Positions 7,040-60,705 of a stretch of DNA of 64,000 bases are shown in pieces. The stretch comes from an uncultured Candidatus Saccharibacteria bacterium (lineage in GTDB: Bacteria > Patescibacteriota > Saccharimonadia > Saccharimonadales > JALRHH01), in NCBI GenBank assembly GCA_964559915.1, contig CAZLJP010000002.1:66423-130422 (forward strand), read 5' to 3'. The notes below the pieces were generated by a model. The model worked only from the letters and a program-made list of their open reading frames with translations, did no database searches and was not told where the DNA came from. How positions within the stretch are numbered: the first letter of the stretch is position 1; every line of letters starts with the position of its first letter. Made by a program: the position numbers and the translations under genes.

Positions 7040-8266
7040 CTAACGCTGGCGCAAAGCTTCGATAGGGTCTTTGTGAGCTGCCTTAAGCGCAGGTGCAACG
7101 CCAAAGATAATACCCACTAGTACTGATACACCTACCGCCAGAACCACCACAGGTAGTGTCAAAACAGGTTCTATATCAGTTGCTATACTAAGTATGCCAT
7201 TAATAAGAAGTGACAATGCCACACCGACTACGCCACCCATAGAACTAATTACCGCCGCTTCAATCACAAACTGGCCCAATATCTGATTGTTTGTTGCACC
7301 GACGGCTTTTCTGATGCCAATTTCATGAGTTCGTTCGGTTACAGATACTAACATTACATTCATAATGCCAATACCACCGACCAGCAACGATATGGCCGCA
7401 ATACCACTGATTAAACGAGTTAATAGTGAGAGCACTGAGTCTGCTATAGCCAAGCTATCCTCTTGTTGCAGTACGCTCACGTCGTCCTGACCAGCATGTG
7501 CAGTTCGCAACTTTGATTCTAGTTCTTTGGCTACGGTAGCAGTTTGCTGCTGGTCCAGCGGCTTGACCAATATCTGTTGGATATTAGGGCTACCCCCTGC
7601 GAGGCGCTTAGCAATACCACTCGGTATAAAAATAGCGTTGTCATAATCTGTCAGGGGGTTCAGTGGTGAGGCTTCAAAATCTTCGAACACACCAACAATC
7701 ACAAAACTCTGGCCACGTATTTGCAGACTACGGCCAATCGGTACTTGCTCTTCGAGTAAATTCTCGGCCACACCACGGCCAACTACGGCCACCGCTTTAT
7801 TGGTATCATCACCAAAGAATGCACCGTATTCAACTTTTTGATTCAGCATCTGCGGCAAAGCACTGGAGGTTGCCACCAACAAAGTACCTGGTAATGACTT
7901 GTTATCTACCTCTGGCACAGCCGATACAAAGCCTAGTGGCACTGCCTGGCCAACACCCGGCGTTGTAGCGACCGTATTCAAATCCGTCTCGCTCAGAGTA
8001 CCTCCGGCAAAAGCGCTCAATAGGTTAACGCTGGATACCTGGCCCTGGCTATCACGGGTAACGGCCTTACCTGGACGGACAGTTATCAAGTCGGAACCAA
8101 AGTGATCAATCTGGTCTGTAATCTGGTGCTTGACGCCTTCGCCGATACTGACAATTGTCACCACGCTGACCACGCCAATAATAACGCCAGACATGGTTAG
8201 TAAGCTGCGCCAACGTGCGGTGCGAATAGAATCGAGTGCGATTTTGACATTACCGGTTGCAATCAT
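7040..8266 (-). CDS. ABC transporter permease, MacB/FtsX-like
   Basis: 408 aa. N-terminal TM, periplasmic MacB-type domain and a C-terminal FtsX bundle (ERTHEIGIRKAVGAT...). 4-nt overlap with the upstream ATPase gene. Confidence 0.9.
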   Translation of the reverse strand: MIATGNVKIALDSIRTARWRSLLTMSGVIIGVVSVVTIVSIGEGVKHQITDQIDHFGSDLITVRPGKAVTRDSQGQVSSVNLLSAFAGGTLSETDLNTVATTPGVGQAVPLGFVSAVPEVDNKSLPGTLLVATSSALPQMLNQKVEYGAFFGDDTNKAVAVVGRGVAENLLEEQVPIGRSLQIRGQSFVIVGVFEDFEASPLNPLTDYDNAIFIPSGIAKRLAGGSPNIQQILVKPLDQQQTATVAKELESKLRTAHAGQDDVSVLQQEDSLAIADSVLSLLTRLISGIAAISLLVGGIGIMNVMLVSVTERTHEIGIRKAVGATNNQILGQFVIEAAVISSMGGVVGVALSLLINGILSIATDIEPVLTLPVVVLAVGVSVLVGIIFGVAPALKAAHKDPIEALRQR

Positions 8267-9144
8267 TTGCTCGTGGGCCCTTTCTTCTTGCGCGAAGAAT
8301 AGCGTCGCTTTGGCTTCTTAGTTGCAGGTTTGGGTTCCTTGGCCGCTTCTTCTTTTTCGGGCATTGTCTTCATCAACTCTGAAACGCCCTGCAGGTCATC
8401 GTCTACGGTCTTTTTGGGCATAAAGTACATACTACGGCGCAATGTTTCGGGGATTTCACCTAAGCTGGTGTGCTCATCGGCTACAATACGACCATCGTGC
8501 ATAAACACCACACGTGAAGCGTAGCGAGTCAGAGAAGGGTTGTGAGTAACCATCAGTATGGTATTGCCGGCCTTATGAAGGTCAGCCAATAATTCCATGA
8601 CCAGCCGACTACTTGTGCTATCCAAATTACCGGTTGGCTCATCAGCAATGATAATCTGTGGCTCATTTATCAGCGCACGGGCAATTGCAGCGCGCTGGGC
8701 CTGGCCACCACTGATTTGGCGAGGATAAAAGTATTCGCGATCATTCAAGCCCAAACGCTCTAAAATCGCAGAGGCCTTTTTCAAACGCTTGGTCTGTAGC
8801 ACCCCCTTGTAAGCAAGTGGTAGGGCTACATTTTCGAGTACTGTCAGACGAGGCAGCAGATTAAATGATTGAAAGATAAAGCCAACATTATCGCGGCGCA
8901 CACGAGCCCGTTGATGCTGACGTAAGCGTGCCACATGTTTGTCGTCTAGTACATATTTGCCGTGAGTAGGCCGGTCCAGCAAACCAATAACGTTCATGAG
9001 CGTAGATTTACCAGAACCACTGGGGCCCATTACTGCCACAAACTCACCACGCTCCACGCTCAAATTAACTTCGTCGAGAGCCACCGTTGTGGCATCGCCG
9101 AAGCCGTACAGCTTGTGAACGTCTTCTAACAAGATTATGGGCAT
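8263..9144 (-). CDS. ABC transporter ATP-binding protein with Lys-rich C-terminal tail
   Basis: Walker A GPSGSGKST, signature ISGGQAQRAAIARAL, Walker [13 protein letters not shown]. The last ~60 aa are basic and low-complexity (KEPKPATKKPKRRYSSRKKKGPTSK). Confidence 0.93.
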   Translation of the reverse strand: MPIILLEDVHKLYGFGDATTVALDEVNLSVERGEFVAVMGPSGSGKSTLMNVIGLLDRPTHGKYVLDDKHVARLRQHQRARVRRDNVGFIFQSFNLLPRLTVLENVALPLAYKGVLQTKRLKKASAILERLGLNDREYFYPRQISGGQAQRAAIARALINEPQIIIADEPTGNLDSTSSRLVMELLADLHKAGNTILMVTHNPSLTRYASRVVFMHDGRIVADEHTSLGEIPETLRRSMYFMPKKTVDDDLQGVSELMKTMPEKEEAAKEPKPATKKPKRRYSSRKKKGPTSK

Positions 9145-9230
9145 GCTGTCCTATAGTGTACCCCGTAAATAAGACCGGGTTCAAGGTGTAAAATTACGTT
9201 TTTTTGGCTATACTAGACAAGTTGCATTAA

Positions 9231-25877: not shown

Positions 25878-25988
25878 ACCCCGTTAGTATACGCCTAAAC
25901 AGAGGTGATTCGCAATAACAAGCATAAAAGGGATGAGGGTCAAAGGATAAGCTTGTATGGCTTGAGCGATGTCGGTACAATACTGCTT

Positions 25989-44442: not shown

Positions 44443-45486
44443 ATGACCGAAGTGGCCACCCCAGCACTGCCGATAGAAAAAATCGTCACCGACATTCTCG
44501 CAACTATAGATAGAGAGCGCGAGCGCGAGATTGTTTCTAGGCGCTTTGGTTTGTTTGATCGCAAAGAAACCTTAGAACAGATTGGTGAGCTGCTTGGTAT
44601 CACCCGCGAGCGCGTTCGTCAGCTGGAAAAAGCAGTTGTAGCTCGTCTCAAGGCTCAGGCAGGGGAGGGGCAACTACCTCATATTACAGAGGTACAGGCC
44701 GCTTTTGTTACCACTATTACCGACATGGGCAAAATTGCTCGTGTACAGGATTTGGCAGGCAAGTTCACAACAGAGAACAACCGTTTAGACCAGGCCCGTG
44801 TAGCGTTTCTGGCAGCACTGTGCCCAGAGCTATCAGTTATTGATGATAACGACCACTTCCACCACGCTGTTGGTATTACCGTTCACCATGATGAAAAGAA
44901 GATAAAAGACCTCGTCGCTAAGCTTATTGACACTATTAAGCAGCACGGCGAGCCAGCTGACATCAAGACTATTGCTGCTAAGGCTGGGCACGATGATCAC
45001 CTGCACACCCAAGCCCTAGCCAGCACCAGCAAGCACCTCGCGACCCTTAATGACCGTTGGGGACTTATCAAGTGGCCTATGGTCAACCCTAAAAATATTC
45101 GCGACAAGATTTACGTTATTCTGAAGGAACATGGCAAGCACATGCACTTCAACGAGATTTCTGATGCTATCAAGAAAAGTGATTTCAAGCGCAAGGATGT
45201 CACAACCCAGGCTATCCACAACGAACTTATCAAAGACAAGCGCTTTGTATTGATTGGCCGTGGTATCTATGCCCTCAAAGAATGGGGTTATAACAAGGGT
45301 ACCGTCGCTGATATTATCTCTGACGTCCTCAAAAAAGCTGGCGAGCCACTGCACCGCGATGAAATCGTTAAGCGCGTGCTTAAGAGCCGTTATGTCAAAG
45401 AAACGACAATCCTATTGAACCTTCAAGGCAAACAGCAGTTCAAACGCGTTGCTAAAGCCACCTACAGCCTCGCCGACGCTGAATAA
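44443..45486 (+). CDS. Sigma-70 region-4-like HTH protein with HARE-HTH-like C-terminus
   Basis: 347 aa. VSRRFGLFDRKETLEQIGELLGITRERVRQLEKAVVARLK is a region-4-type HTH. The C-terminal IISDVLKKAGEPLHRDEIVKRVLK is a HARE-HTH-like winged helix. Confidence 0.65.
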   Translation: MTEVATPALPIEKIVTDILATIDREREREIVSRRFGLFDRKETLEQIGELLGITRERVRQLEKAVVARLKAQAGEGQLPHITEVQAAFVTTITDMGKIARVQDLAGKFTTENNRLDQARVAFLAALCPELSVIDDNDHFHHAVGITVHHDEKKIKDLVAKLIDTIKQHGEPADIKTIAAKAGHDDHLHTQALASTSKHLATLNDRWGLIKWPMVNPKNIRDKIYVILKEHGKHMHFNEISDAIKKSDFKRKDVTTQAIHNELIKDKRFVLIGRGIYALKEWGYNKGTVADIISDVLKKAGEPLHRDEIVKRVLKSRYVKETTILLNLQGKQQFKRVAKATYSLADAE

Positions 45487-50791: not shown

Positions 50792-52570
50792 CTAGTTGGT
50801 CTTCGGTGTAACCCCGTAACTATCAATCATCATGTTGGCTAGTTTTACGAATATTGGTGCTGCTGCTTTTGACCCTGCATAGCCTGCAATTTTGGGTTTA
50901 TTTACACGCACCACAATGACGTATTCAGGCTTATCGCCACCAATAAAGCCAACATACATACCGTTAAAGAGGTCATCGTAGTAGCCACCCGTTGGCTTGG
51001 TTATTTGGGCAGTGCCGGTTTTGCCGCCAACTGCGTATTCACCGCGGACTGGACCAGCTCCATAGGCCGTACGGTTGGCTTGATATGTTATCTGTAACAT
51101 ATTGACTAGCTGGGCACTTATTTCTGGCCGGATAGCTTGTTTGTGCAGGATTTCTGGTTTATGTTTGGTCTGTTTGCCGGACGCATCCGTGGTGGCTTCT
51201 ATGAGTGTTGGTTTGTAATACGTACCGCCGTTTAGGATAGCGGCAAATGCCCCGGCCATCTGCAGAGGCGTGGCAGTCATACCCTGTCCAAAGGCCGTGT
51301 TGGCATAAGTAATATTCAAACCAAAGCCGTCTGTTGGGTGCGGAATAGTACCGGGCGCCTCGTAACCCTGTTCAATACCCGTAGTGGCACCGAAATTATA
51401 ATGATTAATCATATAATCATACCAACGCGTTCGTGCTTGCTCATTAATGGAGCCGCCGCCCATTTGCATAAGTAACCACGTAGCACCTGTATTGAGGGAG
51501 TATTTCAAGATATCCGTGACTGTGCGTTGCGCCGCACCACCATCTTCCTCGATATTGGTAACCTTTGCGTCATCAATCTTATAAAACCCGGGATCATAGT
51601 AACTTGTTGAGGGGTTCACCGTATTCAGATTCATCGCAGCAGCGGCAGTCAATGGCTTCATAACCGAACCAACCTCTAGGGGGTCACTGACATTAGTGTT
51701 GTTAAATGCCTCTGGCTTGGTTACCTTAAAGTATTCTGCTGGGTTATAGGTTGGTGCGCTAGCCATGGCCCGTATAGCGCCCGTGTTGGCATCCATAATC
51801 ATCGCGCTGCCTGATTCGGCTTTGGCACTTTCTAGGCCCTGCTTCAATATATCTTCCAGTTGCTGTTGGATGCTAACATCAATGGTCAGCGTCAATGTCT
51901 TGCCTGCTTCTGGTGCTATTACCACATTATCTTTATTGGCAGCTAGTGGTATGCCAGCCGCGTCAGTAATAGCCTTCAACTGGCCTGGCGTGCCTCTGAG
52001 TTCTTGGTTAAGTGCTTCCTCGAGGCCATATTTGCCGTCACCATCGTCATTTACAAATCCCAGTAGTTGGGAAGCTAGTTGGCCATCTGGGTAGGTCCTA
52101 TACTGCGCCTCACGCGTACCCACACCTTTTAGTTTCAGCGCATCAATTGCCTCATGTTGTTGCCTGGTCAGTCGCTTGGCTAGCACTGTGTAGCGTGGTG
52201 AGTCGGGGTGCTTTATTTTATCTTCGTATTGGTTAGCTTGGGCGCCTGTTGCCTTTGCTAGCTGAGAGGCTACATCACTGGCATCCTTAACATATTTTGG
52301 GTCAACAAAGAGCGTATAGAGTGTCTCGTTGAGCACGAGCGGCACCGTTTGCTCACCGCTTTTGGCCTGAATGACGCCACGGACGGCAGGAACTTCATAT
52401 TCTTTCAGCTGACTAAAAGCGGCTGCCTTCTGATAATAATCATGTCGAATCACCTGCAAATAAAACAATCGAATCACAAACAAAATACCGACGGCTATCA
52501 GAACCCCATGCCACACTCGAATGCGCGCAATGGTGCCAAATTTTATGTTTGTTTGTGGTCGCATAAGCAC
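50792..52570 (-). CDS. ftsI: Penicillin-binding protein 2/3 type transpeptidase (FtsI)
   Basis: 592 aa. N-terminal TM. SxxK (GSVMKP), SxN (YSLN) and KTG (GKTGTA). Confidence 0.93.
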   Translation of the reverse strand: MLMRPQTNIKFGTIARIRVWHGVLIAVGILFVIRLFYLQVIRHDYYQKAAAFSQLKEYEVPAVRGVIQAKSGEQTVPLVLNETLYTLFVDPKYVKDASDVASQLAKATGAQANQYEDKIKHPDSPRYTVLAKRLTRQQHEAIDALKLKGVGTREAQYRTYPDGQLASQLLGFVNDDGDGKYGLEEALNQELRGTPGQLKAITDAAGIPLAANKDNVVIAPEAGKTLTLTIDVSIQQQLEDILKQGLESAKAESGSAMIMDANTGAIRAMASAPTYNPAEYFKVTKPEAFNNTNVSDPLEVGSVMKPLTAAAAMNLNTVNPSTSYYDPGFYKIDDAKVTNIEEDGGAAQRTVTDILKYSLNTGATWLLMQMGGGSINEQARTRWYDYMINHYNFGATTGIEQGYEAPGTIPHPTDGFGLNITYANTAFGQGMTATPLQMAGAFAAILNGGTYYKPTLIEATTDASGKQTKHKPEILHKQAIRPEISAQLVNMLQITYQANRTAYGAGPVRGEYAVGGKTGTAQITKPTGGYYDDLFNGMYVGFIGGDKPEYVIVVRVNKPKIAGYAGSKAAAPIFVKLANMMIDSYGVTPKTN

Positions 52571-52621
52571 TTTTATTATACCACTTTATCCACCTATAAC
52601 AGAGTATTGAGTCCCGCGTAG

Positions 52622-52852: not shown

Positions 52853-53200
52853 TTAGTTTTGAATGGTAGCGCTGGGCGCGACAGATACCATGTTCTTGGC
52901 CACATCGCTGTTCTTTACACGGTCGAGCGCCTGCAAACGGGCAGCTGATACCTGTAATTCAGCGTTTTCGTCCTTGAGCTTAGTTTGCTGTTGCTCAAGG
53001 CCATTAATCTTGTAGCCGTAGGCATTTGTTTTGGTCACCTGCGTCAGATACAGCAGGCCTAAAAGACATGCCAAAATAATCAGCATAATGGTATTACTGA
53101 CCGGGCCAAGCGTCCGTTCATTACTGCGAAAACGCGTGGTATTTTGATTGCGACCGTAGCTACGATTTCTGCTCATAGCTAGTGAGCTGGAATATGTCAT
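52853..53200 (-). CDS. ftsL: FtsL-like cell division protein
   Basis: 115 aa. Basic N-terminus, one TM, and a coiled coil (LEQQQTKLKDENAELQVSAARLQALDRV). It lies between rsmH and ftsI. Confidence 0.65.
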   Translation of the reverse strand: MTYSSSLAMSRNRSYGRNQNTTRFRSNERTLGPVSNTIMLIILACLLGLLYLTQVTKTNAYGYKINGLEQQQTKLKDENAELQVSAARLQALDRVKNSDVAKNMVSVAPSATIQN

Positions 53201-53335
53201 ATATTTTTGTGTTTGTTTTGTTGTTTGTTATAGTCCGCACCCCAGTTGCCTGGGGTACGGCAAGCGTATTTACTGTTCGATTCGAACGGTAACTTTATAC
53301 GCTCGGGAGAGGCTTTTGACCTGGATAGGCATGTC

Positions 53336-54229
53336 TCATCCCTTTCTATTTTTTATTTTCACGGCGGCCCGTAGCTTTGCGCTACGTGCTCGCGGATTGA
53401 AAACAACTTCGTCTGCCCCGCCCGAAACAGGCTGTTTCGTTAACAGCTGTAGGACGGCGTCGTAGCGATTACCAGATTGTGAAGCCAAAAACTGCTTCAC
53501 GATACGGTCCTCCAAACTATGGAAGCTGATAATCGCTATCCGCCCTCCTGGTGCCAACAGCTCAAGCCATAATGGCAGGCTGCGTTCTAGCTGTCCCAGC
53601 TCGTCATTGACCGCAATACGAATAGCCTGAAAGGTTCGTGTTGCAGGATGAACTTTGCTGTGGCCTGGCCAAGCGCGAGCGACGATTGATGCAAGTTCGT
53701 GTGTTGTAGCATACGGACGATTATCCACTATCAACTGGGCTATCTTATTAGCCCGCGGCTCCTCGCCGTACGTGCGGAGAATGCGAAGTATTTCTGTCTG
53801 CTCATAGGTATTGACTATGTCTGCAGCCGTAATAGCCTGCTGTTCATCCATACGCATATCTAGTGGTCCATCAGTCTTTATACTGAACCCACGCTGCGAA
53901 TTATCAAGGTGCGGTGACGAAACGCCCAAATCAGCCAAAATAATGTCGAACTGCTTATTCTCAGACACCAATTGCTGGCTGGCGCTCAGAAAATCCGCGT
54001 GGATGATATGAGAACCTTTGTCTGCGAACGTTGTACGCAAAAACGCCACGGCGTTCTGGTCGCGATCGACGAGAGTTGCTTGGTGAGGCTTCAAGGTGCT
54101 ATCGAGCACTTTGGCGGCGTGTCCACCGTATCCTGCCGTCAAATCGAGGTATGATTCCCCTGCTTGCGGATTAAGATAGTGGAGTACTTCGTCCAAAAGT
54201 ACTGGATGGTGTTCGTTAGATTGCTGCAT
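53336..54229 (-). CDS. rsmH: 16S rRNA (cytosine1402-N4)-methyltransferase RsmH
   Basis: HHPVLLDEV, DLTAGYGGHA, ADLGVSSPHLD and SFHSLEDRIVK. Confidence 0.94.
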   Translation of the reverse strand: MQQSNEHHPVLLDEVLHYLNPQAGESYLDLTAGYGGHAAKVLDSTLKPHQATLVDRDQNAVAFLRTTFADKGSHIIHADFLSASQQLVSENKQFDIILADLGVSSPHLDNSQRGFSIKTDGPLDMRMDEQQAITAADIVNTYEQTEILRILRTYGEEPRANKIAQLIVDNRPYATTHELASIVARAWPGHSKVHPATRTFQAIRIAVNDELGQLERSLPLWLELLAPGGRIAIISFHSLEDRIVKQFLASQSGNRYDAVLQLLTKQPVSGGADEVVFNPRARSAKLRAAVKIKNRKG

Positions 54230-54615
54230 TGCGCACTAATCTACTCGCTTTTTATTTTGGTTTTGATTTTGGTGTTTTTGTTTTAATGCTTTTTGAAAAG
54301 CTTCAAAGTCACCTAACTGATAGCCAACTTTTTGTTTTTTGGTTGTTTTTGTTTTTGTGTGTTCTTATCCGTGTATGTGAGAGTAGTTCTTTAGACTATT
54401 TTTGCCTAAAGCATTGCCTTCACTGGTTAAGAACATAAGTGTTGAGAGACTTATGTGTGAGGTGGAGTTTTGGGAGGTGTTTTGAGGTAATGTGCTAGGG
54501 TTTTTTATATGGTTACCCTCGGTCCATATGTTGACTATCAGATAGTTAACTTCGATAAGAAATCTATCTGTTTGTTGCTATCGTCGAATTGTTAAGGTAC
54601 TACAAAGTCACCAAT

Positions 54616-54975
54616 TTATGCAGCTTGGATTCGCCAGTATTTACCTGCACGGACAGCTACGACATCTCTGGTAATGCCCGCATAGTCCAGCAGATGCTGT
54701 TCTATGGTGACACGACCCTGTTTTTGGTCGAGCTCGTCGCTACTCTTACCCGCTCGGAACTGTACGTTCAGGTCTGCCGTCTTTTCGTCCAGGATATTAC
54801 CCTGAAGTTGCGGTTCGACCTCGTAGTCCCAAACATTTTTGGGGTATAAGTGCAGGTACTTCTGGAAACCTCTGGTAAGTACTACTCCGCTTTCGAACTC
54901 GGCTCGAAGCTCCGCAGGTATTGTCAACCTACGCTTGTCGTCAAGCTTTCGTTCAAAGTAGTCTACCGTGGCCAT
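54616..54975 (-). CDS. mraZ: Transcriptional regulator MraZ
   Basis: 119 aa. Two repeat motifs: KLDDKRRLTIPAELR and ELDQKQGRVTIEQHL. Confidence 0.85.
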   Translation of the reverse strand: MATVDYFERKLDDKRRLTIPAELRAEFESGVVLTRGFQKYLHLYPKNVWDYEVEPQLQGNILDEKTADLNVQFRAGKSSDELDQKQGRVTIEQHLLDYAGITRDVVAVRAGKYWRIQAA

Positions 54976-55040
54976 TGGTACCCTTATTAAATTGCAGTGG
55001 TTTTTTGTTTTTTATGGTCGGAGGTAGTCTGTTTTGGACT

Positions 55041-55093
55041 ACCCACGATTACCCACTAACGCCATCATACAACCCACTGTTACCCACGTGCAA
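55041..55093 (-). promoter_or_regulatory. mraZ promoter with four GTGGGT boxes (candidate MraZ operator)
   Basis: The minus strand reads TTGCAC-GTGGGTaacaGTGGGTtg-TATGAT-ggcgtta-GTGGGTaatcGTGGGT. The boxes lie at 55087-82, 55077-72, 55056-51 and 55046-41, spaced 10 bp apart within each pair. Confidence 0.7.
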
Positions 55094-55128
55094 TAGTTTT
55101 TTAGAGAAAGTGACCATAGTTATCCACA

Positions 55129-55155
55129 GAAAAACGCCCCGTCAATTCGGGGCGC
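55129..55155 (-). terminator. Intrinsic terminator after the LysM-like gene
   Basis: The minus strand reads CGCCCCG-AATTGA-CGGGGCG followed by TTTTT. Confidence 0.75.
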
Positions 55156-55189
55156 TATATATGGGCATATCAGTAGTATCGCAACGCTA

Positions 55190-55828
55190 TTACTTGGCTT
55201 TATCGTCTGGATATAGCTGATAGCCTGGTTCCGTGGGGTTGCCATCGCCTTCACCCGGAAGATACAGTGTATCGCCCGCAGCGATACCGCTGTGGTTATT
55301 CATATTGAGACCGCGGTCATTGTTCATCTGAATGATGGCATCGACTGCTTCTTTCGTAGTAACTTTTTGGCTTTCATCTTCTACTGAGGCGTTGATATTC
55401 TGAGCAACTTGCTCACCTGTTTCACTTAAAGTTTCACCTGGCTGTACGGTGCGGAAATCAGGGCTTGGATTTTGTAGGACAGCTGGGACTTCTTCTTTGG
55501 GAGCGTCTTTACCGTGCGTTAAGTTGCCTAACGAACTAATACCCACTACGAATGCGCCTGCGGCCACAGCTATTTTTTGAGCCAGCGAAAGCTTTTCGGG
55601 CTTTGAGTTTGCTTTGTTTATTGCCTCTTGTGAATTACTAGACTCTGCTGGCAAGGCTGCCTGGCTGATGTTTTGGTATTCCGCAGGTTTTGCTTCAGCA
55701 ACCATGTTCAGTGTCTTGTCGGTGTCAGCAACAAACTCGTCTTCTCGACTTTGCTGTAGCTTAGGCTCAATTGGTACGACGTTATTTTGTAAATTTTCTG
55801 GAGTGTTTGGGTTTTGTGTTTCTGACAT
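55190..55828 (-). CDS. Hypothetical membrane-anchored protein with LysM-like C-terminus
   Basis: 212 aa. One TM (IAVAAGAFVVGISSL). The C-terminal segment VQPGETLSETGEQVAQ...GIAAGDTLYLPG resembles LysM. Confidence 0.45.
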   Translation of the reverse strand: MSETQNPNTPENLQNNVVPIEPKLQQSREDEFVADTDKTLNMVAEAKPAEYQNISQAALPAESSNSQEAINKANSKPEKLSLAQKIAVAAGAFVVGISSLGNLTHGKDAPKEEVPAVLQNPSPDFRTVQPGETLSETGEQVAQNINASVEDESQKVTTKEAVDAIIQMNNDRGLNMNNHSGIAAGDTLYLPGEGDGNPTEPGYQLYPDDKAK

Positions 55829-55837
55829 AATATTGAC

Positions 55838-55866
55838 ATTTTAGCAAAACATTAGCTTTTTGTCAA
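55838..55866 (-). promoter_or_regulatory. Consensus sigma70-type promoter (TTGACA-17-TAAAAT), 9 nt from the start codon
   Basis: On the minus strand, TTGACA is at 55866-55861 and TAAAAT at 55843-55838. It is flanked by the 12-bp inverted repeat ATAATATTGACA/TGTCAATATTAT. Confidence 0.6.
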
Positions 55867-55876
55867 TATTATGGTT

Positions 55877-57145
55877 TTATTCGTTTATCTTGGCGATTGT
55901 TGCTGCGAACCATTTGGCACTGGGGCGAACTGTACGCTTGAGGCCGCGTTTGCGGTCGACCGCAATCAAGCCGAACCGTGGCCACCAACCATCTTGCCAT
56001 TCAAAATTATCTAATAAGCTCCAGTGGAAATAGCCACGCAGATCCACGCCTTCACTAATTGCACGCTCCATGGCCACGATTGTTTCCTCAATCCACCAGC
56101 GACGATGCACGTCCGTAGCATCTGCCAGACCGTTCTCGGTAATAAAAATCGGTGTCTTGAAACGGGCCCAGGTCCGGAGCAGCAAAGGATAGATACCTTC
56201 TGGCTCCATATACCAACCCATATCATTGAGTGGCACCTTGGGATTGGCTCGCTTGCCCAAGCCCGTAAAGTAATCGCTAAAGTAATAGTTCAGCCCTATG
56301 AAGTCTTGGTGTTTGCGGATGCGGCGCAGATACCACCAGTTCCAGAAATAGCGCATCCATTGTGTGGTTAGTTCGTCTAGATATTTATGAGGCCTTTTGG
56401 CTTGAATATTGGCAAGCTGCATGGCAACGCCAACTTGTAATGATGGTTTCTTGGCCTTGAGTATGTCATAAGCATACCTATGAGCCCTAACTAAATTCCA
56501 ATACACATTCATAAATGTCAGAGTGCTGCGCTTGCCCGGTGGGTGCTGACCCGTGAGGTAGCTAAAGCTAGCATCAACATTTGGCTCGTTTAATGTAATT
56601 ACATATTCCACATCATCGAGCAGCTCTTCGGATATCTTATCGACAAAACGCATAAAATAGGTCAGGTTTTCTGACTTTTCAAAACCGCCCTTTTCCGCAA
56701 ACCACACCGGCATTGTCCAGTGCCAAATATTAAGGAAAGGTTCGAGCTTGCGTGCACGTAGTTCTTTAATGTATTTCTTGTAATGCGCCACCGCCTGGGC
56801 ATCCCAGACACCTTCTTCCGGCTCAAGTCTGGACCATTCAATAGTAAATCTGAAGGCATTGAGGTTGAGCGATTGAGCTAAGTCAAAATCTTCTTTGTAT
56901 CTGTTAAAATGGTCAACACCTTTGCCTGAAACATAGTTTTCAGGCTCTTCGGCCTGGTCTTTAATCTCTTGCCAATTGGGTAGCCAGCTGAGCCGTTGAT
57001 GCGCCGTCTGCGCAAACTCTTTGGCGTGCTCTAGCTCCCAGACCGTCCACTGATTATACAAATCGCCTTCTACCTGGTGCGCGGCGGTACTGGCGCCCCA
57101 GAAAAAATGCTTGGGGAAATTACGGTCTGGATGTTCTTCGTTCAT
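55877..57145 (-). CDS. GH1-family beta-glucosidase
   Basis: 422 aa. FFWGASTAAHQVEG, acid/base ITLNEPN, nucleophile FITENG. Confidence 0.93.
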   Translation of the reverse strand: MNEEHPDRNFPKHFFWGASTAAHQVEGDLYNQWTVWELEHAKEFAQTAHQRLSWLPNWQEIKDQAEEPENYVSGKGVDHFNRYKEDFDLAQSLNLNAFRFTIEWSRLEPEEGVWDAQAVAHYKKYIKELRARKLEPFLNIWHWTMPVWFAEKGGFEKSENLTYFMRFVDKISEELLDDVEYVITLNEPNVDASFSYLTGQHPPGKRSTLTFMNVYWNLVRAHRYAYDILKAKKPSLQVGVAMQLANIQAKRPHKYLDELTTQWMRYFWNWWYLRRIRKHQDFIGLNYYFSDYFTGLGKRANPKVPLNDMGWYMEPEGIYPLLLRTWARFKTPIFITENGLADATDVHRRWWIEETIVAMERAISEGVDLRGYFHWSLLDNFEWQDGWWPRFGLIAVDRKRGLKRTVRPSAKWFAATIAKINE

Positions 57146-57165
57146 AGCTTATGTTTATTATAACG

Positions 57166-57297
57166 TAGGAACGGAGCTAAAGAGAAGTTTACTTATCTTT
57201 AGCGAGTACCGCCCGTTTCAGTGATACGAAGTATCACTATAACCCAGGAGCGGAGATAAGAAGAAGCTTGCTTATTCTTATCGGGCACCACCGGTTT
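57166..57297. repeat. Two tandem ~52-nt hairpin units with compensatory stem changes, plus a third hairpin between them
   Basis: Hairpin 1 is GCTAAAGA (57176-83) with TCTTTAGC (57196-203). Hairpin 2 is AGTGATAC (57220-27) with GTATCACT (57231-38). Hairpin 3 is GATAAGAA (57255-62) with TTCTTATC (57275-82). Units 1 and 3 align along their flanks and loops. Confidence 0.8.
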
Positions 57298-57889
57298 ATA
57301 CGCTATGCTGGTTGTCTTGGGCCTTTTGGCGAACCTTTTCGTCTAGATGCTCAATGAGTTCGAGCGTATCAAACATTTCGTCGCAATCATACGGTGTCAT
57401 CATATCGTCATCCATGTTGCCTGCCGTCAGAATATCCGGACGAAGAATCGTGGCATAGTATGGAAATAATGGGTCATTTGTCTCTTCAATGAAGTATTTT
57501 GTAGCCAATGTATGAAGCTGAGTATTCTTGTGCTCAACAAGTGTTTCGATTAAGAGAGAGTATTCTTGTCTAAGTGCTCCCTTGCCAAGATACCGTACGT
57601 GGTTAACGCTGAATCGAATCGTGTCGCCCAGCTCCCCGCTATACTCATCATCTTGCATCTGATACTCTTGCCTAAACATATGCCTGACGGCTTGCCCACC
57701 TCCCAAGTCTTCTTGGGAGGTGTTTGGTGCATTTTCTGGAGCATGAATAATATCATCAATTATTTCAATGAGTACGGACACACCGCCCTCAGCGCTCTGC
57801 ATCTCTTTAGTATTATATTCTTCAAGATGGTCATGGTCATGATACTCTGGAACGCCCATCCCCAACCCTAGGAAAGCTTCGTGTTGCAT
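57296..57889 (-). CDS. Hypothetical acidic protein
   Basis: 197 aa, Asp/Glu/His-rich, with no family recognised. Confidence 0.45.
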   Translation of the reverse strand: MQHEAFLGLGMGVPEYHDHDHLEEYNTKEMQSAEGGVSVLIEIIDDIIHAPENAPNTSQEDLGGGQAVRHMFRQEYQMQDDEYSGELGDTIRFSVNHVRYLGKGALRQEYSLLIETLVEHKNTQLHTLATKYFIEETNDPLFPYYATILRPDILTAGNMDDDMMTPYDCDEMFDTLELIEHLDEKVRQKAQDNQHSV

Positions 57890-58787: not shown

Positions 58788-59381
58788 ATGCATACTCATG
58801 ATGGAGACACAGACCCAGGCTTACTACGGCGTATTCGCGGTATTTCCTGGGCGAATGGTTTTATTGGTGCAGCCGAAGTTACAGCCGGTATATTTACCAA
58901 TAGTTCCACCCTAACTATAGCTGGTGTACACGATGCGTCAGACAGCGTCTTGTACAAACTCAAACACAAAGCTGCTTGCGAACAGAATCCTGAACGCAAG
59001 CAACGCTTGCGCAAGTATGGTGCCATGTCACTGATTGGTGCGGCTGTGGTAATTGGCGGCTATGAAATAACTCAAGACTTAACTGACCCACATCATCAGC
59101 CAGAAATGGCTGCGATTGGGATTGCCATTGCCGCAGCTGCCGCTAATATTACTGCAGCCGGTATTATGCACAGCAAACGCCATGACCACGATGCGCAGGA
59201 TAGTTGGAAGCACGTAGCTGGTGTGGACCTGCCTGGGGCATTTATAACCTTAGCCGTCACACCCCTTTCCGTTAAATACCCAGAGCTGGATATCGTAGGC
59301 ACAGCCGCCCACATGGGCTTAGCGATAGCTGTTGGTAGTAACACCCTTCGTGGTATCAACGGCGAATTAGCTACTGATTAA
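58788..59381 (+). CDS. Membrane protein, cation-diffusion-facilitator TMD-like (tentative)
   Basis: 197 aa with five to six TMs. AAEVTAGIFTNSSTLTIAGVHDASDSV resembles the CDF TM1-TM2 region. No cytoplasmic C-terminal domain. Confidence 0.4.
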   Translation: MHTHDGDTDPGLLRRIRGISWANGFIGAAEVTAGIFTNSSTLTIAGVHDASDSVLYKLKHKAACEQNPERKQRLRKYGAMSLIGAAVVIGGYEITQDLTDPHHQPEMAAIGIAIAAAAANITAAGIMHSKRHDHDAQDSWKHVAGVDLPGAFITLAVTPLSVKYPELDIVGTAAHMGLAIAVGSNTLRGINGELATD

Positions 59382-60669
59382 TTAAATCTTCAGTTTTAAT
59401 GCGTTCTTGTTTGGTGGTGTCACGGTGTCGGATGGTTACAGTACCATCTTCGAGAGTGTCGAAGTCTATTACTACGCAGTATGGGGTGCCTATTTCGTCT
59501 TGGCGACGGTAGCGCTTGCCGATATTACCGTTGTCGTCCCACATAACAGCACCATGTTTTTGCTTGAGAGCTTTGTATACTTCCTGAGCCTTCTCAACTA
59601 GTTCTGGCTTGTTCTTAAGCAGTGGTGATACGGCGTATTTAACTGGCGCGAGGTGTTCTGGAAGTTTTAGATATACTCGTTTCTCACCATTAACTTCGTC
59701 TTCTGTATAGGCAGCTGTAAGTACAGCCATAATGGCACGCTCTAAACCAAAGCTTGGCTCAATAACGTGTGGTACAAATGGTGTACTGCCGTCTTTTGGA
59801 CGGTACTCCATGCTTTTACCAGAATCACGCTGGATATTACCTAGGTCAAAATCAGTGCGATATGCCAGGCCAAGTAGTTCTTCGCGGCCAATTGGGAAAT
59901 CAAATTCAAAGTCGATAGTACGTTTGCTGTAGTGGGCGCGGTCGCTTTCTGGAACCTCCAGCTCATGCACTGAGCTCTTTGGTAGCCCTAACGCCTCGCA
60001 CCACTCGTGTACCAGCTTAATCCACTTTTCAAATTCCGCTTCCCAATTATCGGGATGCACAAAGTATTCAATCTCCATTTGTTCGAACTCGCGGCTGCGA
60101 AACACAAAATCACGCGGACTAATCTCATTACGGAATGCCTTGCCCTGCTGACCAATACCAAACGGCAAATCAGGATAGAACGTATCAACAACATTTTTGA
60201 AATTAGTAAAAATGCCCTGGGCTGTTTCGGGCCGCAGATAGCTAATACTTGCTTCATCATCAACGGGGCCAACATTGGTCTTGAACATCATGTTGAATGC
60301 ACGGGCTTGGCCAAAGGAATCTTTTTGACCGCAAGTTGGGCATTTGTTTGGGTCGTCTAGTTTATCCGCACGGAAGCGGCCCTTGCAATTGCTACATTCA
60401 ACCAATGGGTCAGTAAATGTATCAACGTGGCCGCTGGCCTGCCAGACTTTTTGGTTCATCAAAATTGCTGCATCAACACCGTACATGTCGTCACGGTCTT
60501 CCACAAACATCTTCCACCACAACGACATCACATTGCGCTTGAGTGCCACGCCAAGTGGGCCGTAATCCCACGTACCGCTTAAACCACCATAGACTTCACT
60601 GCCCTGAAATATAAATCCACGGCGCTTACACAAACTAACTATGTCTTCTAGTGAAGTATCTTTGCTCAT
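59371..60669 (-). CDS. glyQS: Glycine--tRNA ligase (dimeric class II type)
   Basis: 432 aa. IVSLCKRRGFIFQGSEVYGGLSGTWDYGPLGVALKRNV, FRNEISPR and GLERAIMAVL. Confidence 0.93.
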   Translation of the reverse strand: MSKDTSLEDIVSLCKRRGFIFQGSEVYGGLSGTWDYGPLGVALKRNVMSLWWKMFVEDRDDMYGVDAAILMNQKVWQASGHVDTFTDPLVECSNCKGRFRADKLDDPNKCPTCGQKDSFGQARAFNMMFKTNVGPVDDEASISYLRPETAQGIFTNFKNVVDTFYPDLPFGIGQQGKAFRNEISPRDFVFRSREFEQMEIEYFVHPDNWEAEFEKWIKLVHEWCEALGLPKSSVHELEVPESDRAHYSKRTIDFEFDFPIGREELLGLAYRTDFDLGNIQRDSGKSMEYRPKDGSTPFVPHVIEPSFGLERAIMAVLTAAYTEDEVNGEKRVYLKLPEHLAPVKYAVSPLLKNKPELVEKAQEVYKALKQKHGAVMWDDNGNIGKRYRRQDEIGTPYCVVIDFDTLEDGTVTIRHRDTTKQERIKTEDLINQ

Positions 60670-60705
60670 CTTATGTCCAAGTATACCGAAGACCGATGTA
60701 AAACG

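What the first reader, a model, noticed from the sequence alone, without database searches (positions are those of the whole stretch)
57166..57297. Tandem hairpin motif with three compensatory base-pair changes between GH1 gene and upstream gene
Two ~52-nt units align well. They are GGAACGGA-GCTAAAGA-GAAGTTTACTTA-TCTTTAGC-GAGTACCGCCCGTTT and GGAGCGGA-GATAAGAA-GAAGCTTGCTTA-TTCTTATC-GGGCACCACCGGTTT. The 8-bp stems differ at three positions, and each change is matched by the complementary change on the other arm (C:G to A:T, A:T to G:C, G:C to A:T). Pairing is therefore fully preserved while the flanks and loops stay similar. A third 8-bp hairpin (AGTGATAC-GAA-GTATCACT) sits between the units. 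None has a U-tract on either strand. Covariation between paralogous copies points to selection on structure, such as an RNA motif or a protein-binding hairpin controlling the GH1 gene or the 3' end of the upstream gene.
Basis: seen in the sequence. Interest (0 to 1): 0.55.

Follow-up and report, generated by a model that had tools for sequence, protein, structure and literature searches.

The report
Rare conserved two-hairpin element, Saccharimonadia
The tandem hairpins are real and belong to a rare, undescribed ~80-base folded element whose stems change freely but stay paired while nearly every other base stays fixed; it also sits in front of a tmRNA gene and inside a tRNA-like gene in other Saccharimonadales-type genomes, so it is not a switch for the beta-glucosidase gene, and its function is unknown.

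Summary
Window 57159-57297 holds two 60-nt direct repeats, 75% identical. Each folds into an irregular hairpin, the three stem differences are all compensatory, and an 8-bp hairpin lies between them. A pattern scan that left the stem unspecified, plus one orthologous locus, gave three more units: upstream of GH1 in the closest relative, upstream of a tmRNA gene, and as an 80-nt insertion in the T loop of a tRNA-Asp paralogue. Across the five units, 6 of 8 inner-stem pairs show double-sided changes and 98.7% of cells pair. The 34 non-stem columns are 28-34/34 identical, against 0-9/12 in the variable stem columns. The small hairpin recurs with different stems. Rfam, phage and plasmid searches and the literature gave no match. 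The element is not GH1-specific. Seven other GH1 orthologues lack it. It also lies upstream of the TATAAT box, 11 nt before the ATG, that I infer to be the promoter of a near-leaderless GH1 mRNA. At the orthologous locus it is 82% identical, while synonymous sites are saturated at 45%. My best reading is a protein-recognised folded single strand, probably RNA, with the strand unresolved. A mobile DNA hairpin element is the main rival. This is a new motif candidate of moderate interest.

The parts
57164..57216 (.). Big hairpin unit B, proximal to GH1. Outer helix GGUAC/GUUCC with a U.U mismatch, internal loop UC/UCC, 8-bp variable stem (+ strand arms 57176-57183 and 57196-57203), U.C mismatch, AAG/CUU, 4-nt loop (written for the gene-sense strand).
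   Evidence: CM hit of 79.1 bits (a training sequence). Fold. Covariation.
57220..57238 (.). Small hairpin: 8-bp stem AGTGATAC/GTATCACT with loop GAA on the + strand (UUC on the - strand).
   Evidence: Counterparts with different stems occur in L016, L017 and L002, and 5 pairs carry double-sided changes.
57243..57295 (.). Big hairpin unit A, distal. Variable stem arms at 57255-57262 and 57275-57282. It has no small hairpin of its own, and its 5' end (gene sense) abuts the stop codon of the upstream gene.
   Evidence: CM hit of 71.4 bits (a training sequence)..
57157..57162 (-). TATAAT box (box 2), 3 nt after the conserved ...CTCCGTTCCTACG and 11 nt before the GH1 ATG. Inferred -10 element of a near-leaderless GH1 promoter. 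Its complement reads TATTAT, ending 7 nt before the first G of the big hairpin on the + strand.
   Evidence: About 20 of 59 long ORFs in the window have such a box 6-11 nt before the ATG. GH1 orthologues without the element keep the box. Promoter function is inferred, not shown.
57236..57241 (-). TATAGT box (box 1), at the same distance after unit A as box 2 is after unit B. Its last two bases start the small hairpin.
   Evidence: Equivalent boxes precede the small hairpin in L016 (GGTATAAT) and L017 (GTTATAGC).
57296..57889 (-). Upstream gene: 197-aa acidic orphan protein with no Pfam, PHROG or PADLOC hit. Its stop codon at 57296-57298 touches unit A.
   Evidence: 54% identical to the protein at the same position in L017.
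55877..57145 (-). GH1 beta-glucosidase gene, downstream of the element.
   Evidence: Pfam PF00232, E = 1.3e-77.

Best explanation
This is a previously undescribed structured element of about 80 nt, restricted to a few Saccharimonadales-type (Patescibacteria) lineages.

Anatomy: it has a 43-nt irregular hairpin, a short linker and a 5-8-bp hairpin. In the window there is one full copy (small hairpin plus big hairpin B) and a second big hairpin (A) from a partial tandem duplication.

Proposed mechanism (inferred): it works as a folded single strand. The stems only need to pair. The roughly 34 invariant bases form a surface read by a trans-acting partner, most likely a protein. These bases are the outer helix, the internal loop, the single mismatch, the AAG-NNNN-CUU tip and the linker. 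I think the folded strand is most likely RNA, so the element would be an autonomous RNA module rather than a leader of GH1.

Transcription (inferred):
- On the gene-sense strand it would be the untranslated tail of the upstream transcript. It is packed between that gene's stop codon and the -10 box of the next, near-leaderless promoter.
- On the other strand it would be the first thing transcribed from the divergent face of that same symmetric -10 box (TATTAT, 7 nt, then GGAAC...).
- That second orientation is also the one in which the L002 copy is co-transcribed with tRNA-Asp.

Shown: the anatomy, the covariation, the invariance of the unpaired bases, conservation at an orthologous locus, presence at unrelated loci, and absence from most GH1 orthologues.

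Inferred: transcription, the strand, the partner, and any effect on neighbouring genes.
For: - Covariation: in 5 units, 98.7% of cells pair. 6 of 8 inner-stem pairs, plus outer pair 10-46 (A-U to G-C), change on both sides. Between 0 and 2 of 500 shuffles reach the observed values, and sliding the partners by 1-3 columns drops pairing to 41-64%.
- The small hairpin is kept with four different stems.
- Substitutions fall almost entirely in the stems. Non-stem columns are 28-34/34 identical in every pair, for example 32/34 for window unit B against L002. The 12 variable stem columns are 0-9/12 identical, and 2/12 for that same pair.
- Constraint at the orthologous locus (window against L017): the element-to-ATG region is 82% identical. 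Fourfold sites are 45% identical in GH1, 49% in the upstream gene and 37% in the downstream gene.
- It is not tied to one gene. Copies lie upstream of tmRNA in L016 and in a tRNA-like gene in L002. GH1 orthologues in L018, L019, L021, L023, L029, L031 and L032 lack it.
- It is low-copy. The model finds no other match in the 64-kb window even with filters off, and none in about 220 kb of related Saccharimonadales DNA.
- No known RNA family matches.
- The hairpins lie upstream of the inferred GH1 -10 box.
Against: - There is no expression data.
- Neither strand has a terminator after the hairpins, although canonical terminators exist in this genome (55156-55133) and in L016.
- Pairing gives no strand call. 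The consensus energies are -25.4 (gene sense) and -27.3 (antisense). Four of five big hairpins are more stable in the gene sense, but L017 and the L002 small hairpin are more stable in the other. This symmetry suits a DNA-level hairpin equally well.
- The L002 copy is a discrete 80-nt insertion relative to a paralogous tRNA-Asp, which looks like mobility.
- Only five units are known, and three of them share much ancestry, so the covariation statistics are weak in absolute terms.
- No partner protein was identified, and the neighbouring genes differ at every locus.
Confidence: 0.4

Rival explanations
1. It is a non-autonomous mobile DNA hairpin element of the REP / IS200-IS605-derived or MITE type. 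A transposase supplied in trans recognises the folded single-stranded DNA. The element inserts next to AT-rich -10-like boxes, and some copies have since been retained by the host.
For: - It is an 80-nt block present in a tRNA-like gene but absent from the adjacent paralogous tRNA-Asp.
- It sits at different loci in different genomes and is absent from seven GH1 orthologues.
- Direct repeats flank it: TATAATA on both sides in L016 and TTCGG in L002.
- A partial tandem copy is present in the window.
- Pairing shows no strand bias.
- GTAG precedes the hairpin in 3 of 5 units on the + strand, as in REPs.
- The small-hairpin loops GAA and GCA closed by C-G are the G-N-A type that forms very stable DNA mini-hairpins (my own recollection, not tested).
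Against: - It is very low-copy: one locus in 64 kb and none in about 220 kb of related DNA.
- It has no terminal inverted repeats, and the two hairpins are unlike each other.
- The flanking repeats are imperfect in the window and in L017.
- The 64-kb window encodes no transposase, integrase or HUH protein.
- The orthologous copies are 33/34 identical outside the stem, with compensatory stem changes, although synonymous sites are saturated. A selfish relic would have decayed.
Confidence: 0.25
2. It is an RNA structure on the gene-sense strand at the 3' end of the upstream transcript. It would act as a non-canonical terminator, processing site or exonuclease block that insulates the following near-leaderless promoter from read-through.
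For: - It starts at or within 45 nt of the upstream stop codon at three loci and ends 3 nt before the next -10 box.
- No canonical terminator follows the upstream gene.
- G.U pairs make 4 of 5 big hairpins more stable on this strand.
Against: - There is no U-tract, and the inner stems are AT-rich and weak.
- A terminator or exonuclease block would not need about 34 invariant unpaired bases.
- In L002 this strand is antisense to a tRNA operon.
- Most genes in the window manage without it.
Confidence: 0.15
3. It is a promoter-linked DNA element. A hairpin or cruciform occupying positions -17 to -70 would take the place of a -35 region and bind a factor that sets transcription of GH1, tmRNA and perhaps a few other genes.
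For: - The spacing between the conserved CTCCGYTCCT block and a TATA(A/G)T box is fixed in 4 of 5 units.
- The inferred GH1 promoter has no recognisable -35.
- The pairing is strand-symmetric.
Against: - The L002 copy has no -10 box on either side.
- A double-stranded operator would not need covarying arms.
- GH1 orthologues keep the same -10 box without the element.
- Stable cruciform extrusion of weak AT-rich 8-bp stems is doubtful (inference).
Confidence: 0.12
4. It is a GH1-specific leader RNA, that is a riboswitch, a tandem-hairpin sensor or a BglG/LicT-type RAT antiterminator.
For: It lies immediately upstream of a beta-glucosidase gene, and it is tandem and structured.
Against: - It lies upstream of the -10 box rather than in the leader.
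- There is no terminator to antiterminate.
- It also occurs upstream of tmRNA and in a tRNA-like gene.
- Seven GH1 orthologues lack it.
- Rfam gives no hit, even at E up to 10.
- No CAT/PRD antiterminator protein was found among the roughly 48 window proteins scanned.
Confidence: 0.03

Closest known systems
REP/BIME and ERIC-type intergenic palindromic repeats
   Same: Imperfect intergenic hairpins placed just after stop codons. Stems are kept by compensatory changes, some copies are tandem, and a GTAG-like tetranucleotide precedes the hairpin in 3 of 5 units.
   Different: REP and ERIC elements occur in tens to hundreds of copies per genome, and REPs come with RAYT genes. Here there is one locus in 64 kb, none in about 220 kb of related DNA, and no HUH protein in the window. 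The unpaired bases are far more conserved than the stems, and orthologous copies are under purifying selection.
Correia elements (Neisseria promoter-bearing MITEs)
   Same: A small structured intergenic insert whose end coincides with a TATA(A/G)T box placed to act as the -10 of the neighbouring gene. (The comparison rests on my recollection of the literature.)
   Different: Correia elements have 26-bp terminal inverted repeats, a TA duplication and hundreds of copies. This element has none of these. The GH1 -10 box also appears ancestral, because orthologues without the element keep it.
Guanidine-II (mini-ykkC) tandem-hairpin riboswitch
   Same: Two similar small hairpins in tandem, with conserved loops and covarying stems.
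   Different: mini-ykkC hairpins carry ACGR loops and sit in 5' leaders of transporter genes. Here the loops are YAAR or YUUR and the hairpins lie upstream of the -10 box. Single-unit copies exist before tmRNA, and Rfam gives no hit.
Protein-binding hairpins with fixed loop or bulge and free stems (for example the iron-responsive element or lambda boxB)
   Same: Sequence conservation is concentrated in the unpaired bases, the stems are constrained only to pair, and copies occur at unrelated genes. This is the closest analogy for how the element may work.
   Different: No binding protein is known here, the strand and molecule (RNA or DNA) are unresolved, and the conserved surface of about 34 nt is much larger.
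TIGR arrays (Tas/Nop-domain RNA-guided systems, common in Patescibacteria; PMC12045711)
   Same: Conserved 8-14-nt blocks alternate with two short variable blocks, and the host phylum is the same.
   Different: TIGR units have a period of roughly 36-40 nt. Their 9-nt spacers A and B are not complementary to each other, because they pair with adjacent stretches on opposite target strands. They form arrays of 5-15 units next to a Nop-domain gene. Here the variable blocks are complementary, the period is 79 nt, there are at most 2 units, and no Nop protein was found.
Integron attC sites
   Same: Structure-defined, sequence-variable hairpins at the 3' end of a gene.
   Different: The R''/R' boxes (RYYYAAC / GTTRRRY) are not conserved among the units, and the window encodes no integron integrase.

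Membership tests
Any Rfam 15 family | Covariance-model score at or near the family's gathering threshold | tested here: not met
   Whole window at gathering thresholds: only 3 tRNAs. Positions 57100-57340 at E up to 10: two chance-level hits of 12-13 bits. L002 1-700: only tRNA-Asp.
BglG/LicT RAT antitermination | RAT hairpin overlapping an intrinsic terminator in the 5' leader of the bgl gene | tested here: not met
   No U-tract terminator is present. The hairpins lie upstream of the inferred -10 box.
BglG/LicT RAT antitermination | Cognate CAT-PRD antiterminator protein | tested here: not met
   None found among about 48 window proteins scanned against Pfam. The rest of the genome was not available.
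Guanidine-II (mini-ykkC) | Two hairpins with ACGR tetraloops in a 5' UTR | tested here: not met
   The loops are UAAA/CAAG (gene sense) or UUUA/CUUG (antisense). There is no Rfam hit.
REP/BIME | High copy number dispersed through intergenic regions | tested here: not met
   One locus in 64 kb with filters off. None in about 220 kb of related DNA.
REP/BIME | 5' GTAG/GTGG followed by an imperfect palindrome | tested here: inconclusive
   On the + strand the hairpin is preceded by GTAG in window unit B, L016 and L017, but by CCAG in unit A and CGAG in L002.
REP/BIME | Associated RAYT (Y1 HUH transposase) gene in the genome | not testable with these tools
   None in the window.
MITE | Terminal inverted repeats | tested here: not met
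   The ends of the element share no inverted similarity (direct reading).
MITE | Target-site duplication | tested here: inconclusive
   L016 has TATAATA on both sides. L002 has TTCGG on both sides. The window has TTATAGT and TTATAAT, and L017 has TTATAGC and GTATAAT.
MITE | Filled and empty sites | tested here: met
   There is an 80-nt insertion relative to the paralogous tRNA-Asp. GH1 orthologues occur with and without the element.
IS200/IS605-derived element | Similar subterminal hairpins at both ends, and insertion 3' of a fixed 4-5-nt target | tested here: not met
   The two hairpins differ in size and sequence. The left flank is TATAAC or TATACC at three loci but GTTCG in L002.
TIGR array | Alternating edge and loop repeats with two non-complementary 9-nt spacers, multi-unit arrays, and an adjacent Nop-domain Tas gene | tested here: not met
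   The definitions come from PMC12045711. Here the variable blocks are complementary, the period is 79 nt, there are at most 2 units, and no Nop-domain protein was found.
Integron attC | Conserved R''/R' boxes (RYYYAAC...GTTRRRY) | tested here: not met
   AAAC...GTTATA occurs in the two window units but not in L016, L017 or L002.
Intrinsic terminator | G+C-rich stem followed by a U-tract | tested here: not met
   The scan reports no site in 57146-57295. The stems are AT-rich and the tails are not U-rich.
T-box leader | Stem I with a specifier loop, the T-box sequence, and a terminator/antiterminator | tested here: not met
   Only a 9-nt resemblance (GGGUGGUAC) in L017. Three of five units have CGG there. 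There is no Rfam hit.

The most novel reading that the evidence does not exclude
The element is the RNA (or single-stranded DNA) component of an undescribed Saccharimonadia-specific system. It could be a small RNP or ribozyme-like RNA present once per genome. Alternatively it could be a hairpin-recognising recombination system in which about 34 fixed bases form the recognition or catalytic core and the freely changing stem is only scaffold.
Probability: 0.3. Interest if true: 0.7.

Novelty: new variant of a known kind. Interest (0 to 1): 0.5.

Why it matters
- Almost nothing is known about non-coding elements and gene control in Patescibacteria (CPR).
- The conservation pattern is unusually clean. 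About 34 bases stay fixed while the 12 variable stem positions turn over completely but stay paired, across lineages whose synonymous sites are saturated.
- That pattern is the signature used to nominate new functional RNAs or recognition hairpins, and a covariance model now exists to find more copies.
- The work also corrects a tempting misreading. The element is not a beta-glucosidase riboswitch.
- It also shows that this genome relies widely on -10-only, near-leaderless promoters.

Tried and rejected
- Rfam, at gathering and permissive thresholds: nothing.
- blastn against plasmids and phages: nothing.
- Three viral-contig pattern scans gave 25 hits, all by chance. Their stems are unpaired, or the covariance model gives no hit.
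- Literature searches on Saccharibacteria or CPR promoters, repeats and ncRNAs found nothing relevant except the TIGR-Tas paper. TIGR was then rejected on period, spacer complementarity and the lack of a Nop gene.
- attC, T-box, RAT, mini-ykkC, k-turn, hammerhead-core, SRP RNA and a sarcin-ricin-loop resemblance were checked by eye or by Rfam and dropped. The 10-mer similarity to the sarcin-ricin loop is within chance expectation (my estimate).
- I tried to call the strand from G.U versus C.A pairs and from folding energies. The result was mixed.
- I tried to extend the source genome. One edge protein was not on record, and the other added only 4 kb.
- I looked for an empty or filled site at the TauE-tmRNA locus in a relative. 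That relative has a different gene order and no element.
- The neighbouring orphan proteins have no Pfam, PHROG or PADLOC hits.
- Cluster look-ups returned no organism names. The assignment to Saccharimonadia therefore rests on the L002 record title and on the names of GH1 and TauE homologues.

Full report
**What is there.** The region is the 150-nt gap between two minus-strand genes. One is a 197-aa orphan gene (57296-57889) and the other is a GH1 beta-glucosidase gene (55877-57145; Pfam PF00232, E = 1.3e-77).
- The repeat finder reports two 60-nt direct repeats, 57159-57218 and 57238-57297, 75% identical and 79 nt apart. Each holds a 13-nt inverted repeat, and an 8-bp hairpin with a GAA loop lies between them at 57220-57238.
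- The 8-bp stems GCTAAAGA/TCTTTAGC and GATAAGAA/TTCTTATC differ at three positions, and all three changes are compensated.
- A degenerate pattern of the unit matches twice, against 0.00 expected from shuffles.
- The region folds far better than shuffles on both strands, with z = -5.4 and -4.6.

**More copies.** Rfam finds nothing in the region, even at E up to 10, and the window has no other copy.
- I scanned public collections with patterns that fixed only the flanks and the loop and left the stem as N.
- The GTDB genome set gave one hit, L002, a Saccharimonadales MAG. The JGI metagenomes gave one hit, L016.
- Both hits have fully different stems that still pair, 7/8 plus one wobble and 8/8. 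Both also have a small hairpin next door.
- Thirteen hits to a shorter pattern in viral contigs pair at only 3-4/8, so they are chance and serve as a control.
- The closest GH1 orthologue (86% identity, L017) carries one unit plus the small hairpin at the same place.
- A covariance model built from the five units found nothing else in about 220 kb of related DNA or in further viral pattern hits.

**Structure and conservation.**
- Over five units, 98.7% of cells pair. Six of eight inner-stem pairs change on both sides.
- An outer helix GGUAC/GUUCC has an A-U to G-C exchange at columns 10-46.
- Between 0 and 2 of 500 shuffles reach the observed values, and slid partners pair at only 41-64%.
- The small hairpin has four different stems, with five pairs changed on both sides.
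- Substitutions are confined to the stems. The 34 non-stem columns are 28-34/34 identical in every pair of units, while the 12 variable stem columns are 0-9/12 identical. Window unit B against L002 gives 32/34 against 2/12.
- Five sequences, three of them closely related, are too few for a formal test. The pattern is nevertheless consistent.

**Selection at the orthologous locus.**
- Between the window and L017, fourfold-degenerate sites are 45% identical in GH1, 49% in the upstream gene and 37% in the downstream gene, so they are saturated.
- The stretch from the small hairpin to the ATG is 82% identical, and its stem differences are compensatory.
- Other promoter-bearing intergenic regions are similarly conserved. 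The element therefore behaves like functional non-coding sequence and not like a decaying insert.

**Why it is not a GH1 switch.**
- In L016 the element lies directly upstream of a tmRNA gene (Rfam RF00023, 52.8 bits). The junction ...CTCCGTTCCTACGTTATAAT is identical to the one in the window.
- In L002 it is an 80-nt insertion in the T loop of a paralogue of the adjacent tRNA-Asp, in the opposite orientation relative to its neighbours.
- GH1 orthologues at 74-83% identity (L018, L019, L021, L023, L029, L031, L032) lack it. They have only a short gap containing a TATAAT or TATACT box 9-11 nt before the ATG.
- In the window about 20 of 59 long ORFs have such a box 6-11 nt before the ATG and no Shine-Dalgarno sequence. 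I therefore infer that the TATAAT at 57162-57157 is the -10 box of a near-leaderless GH1 promoter, and that the hairpins lie upstream of that transcription start.
- There is no terminator to antiterminate, and no CAT/PRD protein in the window.

**What it might be.** The data require a folded single strand whose unpaired bases are read specifically.
- I favour RNA (confidence 0.4) for three reasons. The element is retained under selection at a host locus. It is low-copy. It sits where it must be transcribed on the gene-sense strand unless transcription terminates first.
- On the other strand it could be transcribed from the symmetric -10 box (TATTAT, 7 nt, then GGAAC). That is the same orientation in which L002 is co-transcribed with tRNA-Asp.
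- The strand is unresolved. The consensus energies are -25.4 and -27.3 kcal/mol, wobble pairs occur on both strands, and per-unit energies are mixed.
- The main rival (0.25) is a non-autonomous mobile DNA hairpin element. The L002 insertion, the scattered loci, the flanking direct repeats and the strand symmetry support it. Its low copy number, the lack of terminal repeats and of a transposase in the window, and the purifying selection argue against it.
- A read-through insulator or 3'-end structure (0.15) and a promoter-linked DNA hairpin (0.12) remain possible. A GH1 leader RNA is unlikely (0.03).

**Comparisons.**
- TIGR arrays, which are common in this phylum, were read up and rejected. 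Their spacers are not mutually complementary, their period is roughly 36-40 nt, and they need a Nop-domain gene.
- REP/ERIC elements, Correia elements, mini-ykkC, attC sites and T-box leaders each fail at least one defining feature that I tested.
- The nearest functional analogy is a protein-binding hairpin with a fixed loop and a free stem.

**Limits.**
- The taxonomic assignment rests on the L002 record title and on homologue names. Cluster look-ups gave no names.
- The public scans required exact matches at about 20 positions, so diverged members would be missed.
- I had no expression data and no complete genome.

**Verdict.** This is a real, selected and previously undescribed structured motif. 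It is a moderately interesting candidate, and the GH1-control interpretation is not supported.

Noticed in passing
window, whole (for example 2072-2088, 8263-9165, 25972-25988, 50792-52585, 59371-60690): About 20 of 59 long ORFs have a (GG)TAnAAT-like box ending 6-11 nt before the ATG and no Shine-Dalgarno sequence. This suggests that the genome relies widely on -10-only promoters and leaderless or very short-leader mRNAs.
   Followed up: partly
window 54230-54615 and 54976-55189: The 386-nt A-rich gap between mraZ and rsmH is 94% identical to L017. The mraZ upstream region, which has four GTGGG repeats, is 92% identical. Nearby genes are saturated at synonymous sites, and there is no Rfam hit. 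These regions may hold a conserved non-coding element or reflect recent recombination.
   Followed up: partly
window 52853-57889 against L017: Divergence is mosaic. Identity at fourfold sites runs 49%, 45%, 37%, 94%, 79% and 54% across six adjacent genes, which suggests recombination within the dcw-proximal block.
   Followed up: partly
window 55829-55876: A perfect 10-bp inverted repeat AATATTGACA...TGTCAATATT brackets a TTGACA-17-TAAAAT promoter immediately before the gene at 55190-55828. The right arm is not conserved in L017.
   Followed up: no
L002 165-345 (minus strand): A paralogue of the adjacent tRNA-Asp is identical to it over most of the 5' half. It has a rewritten anticodon loop (UUUUGAUC), one acceptor-stem mismatch and the 80-nt element in its T loop. 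ARAGORN does not call it. It is unclear whether it is a pseudogene or a scaffold for the inserted element.
   Followed up: partly
L016 4169-4560 (minus strand): This tmRNA gene is detected by Rfam (52.8 bits, above the gathering score) but missed by ARAGORN. A canonical intrinsic terminator follows it.
   Followed up: yes
L018-L021, L032 (region upstream of GH1): The slot upstream of GH1 is a variable hotspot among relatives. Different genomes carry KwaB (Kiwa defence), a PIF1-type helicase, NYN, RNase H or DUF1801 there. The window and L017 instead carry a fast-evolving acidic 197-aa or 187-aa orphan (54% identical) followed by the element.
   Followed up: partly
window 44443-45486: This protein combines a Sigma70 region 4 domain with a HARE-HTH domain. 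A relative's locus has a protein hitting the same two families (HARE-HTH only faintly, and the gene runs off the end of the locus). It may be a lineage-specific transcription factor.
   Followed up: no
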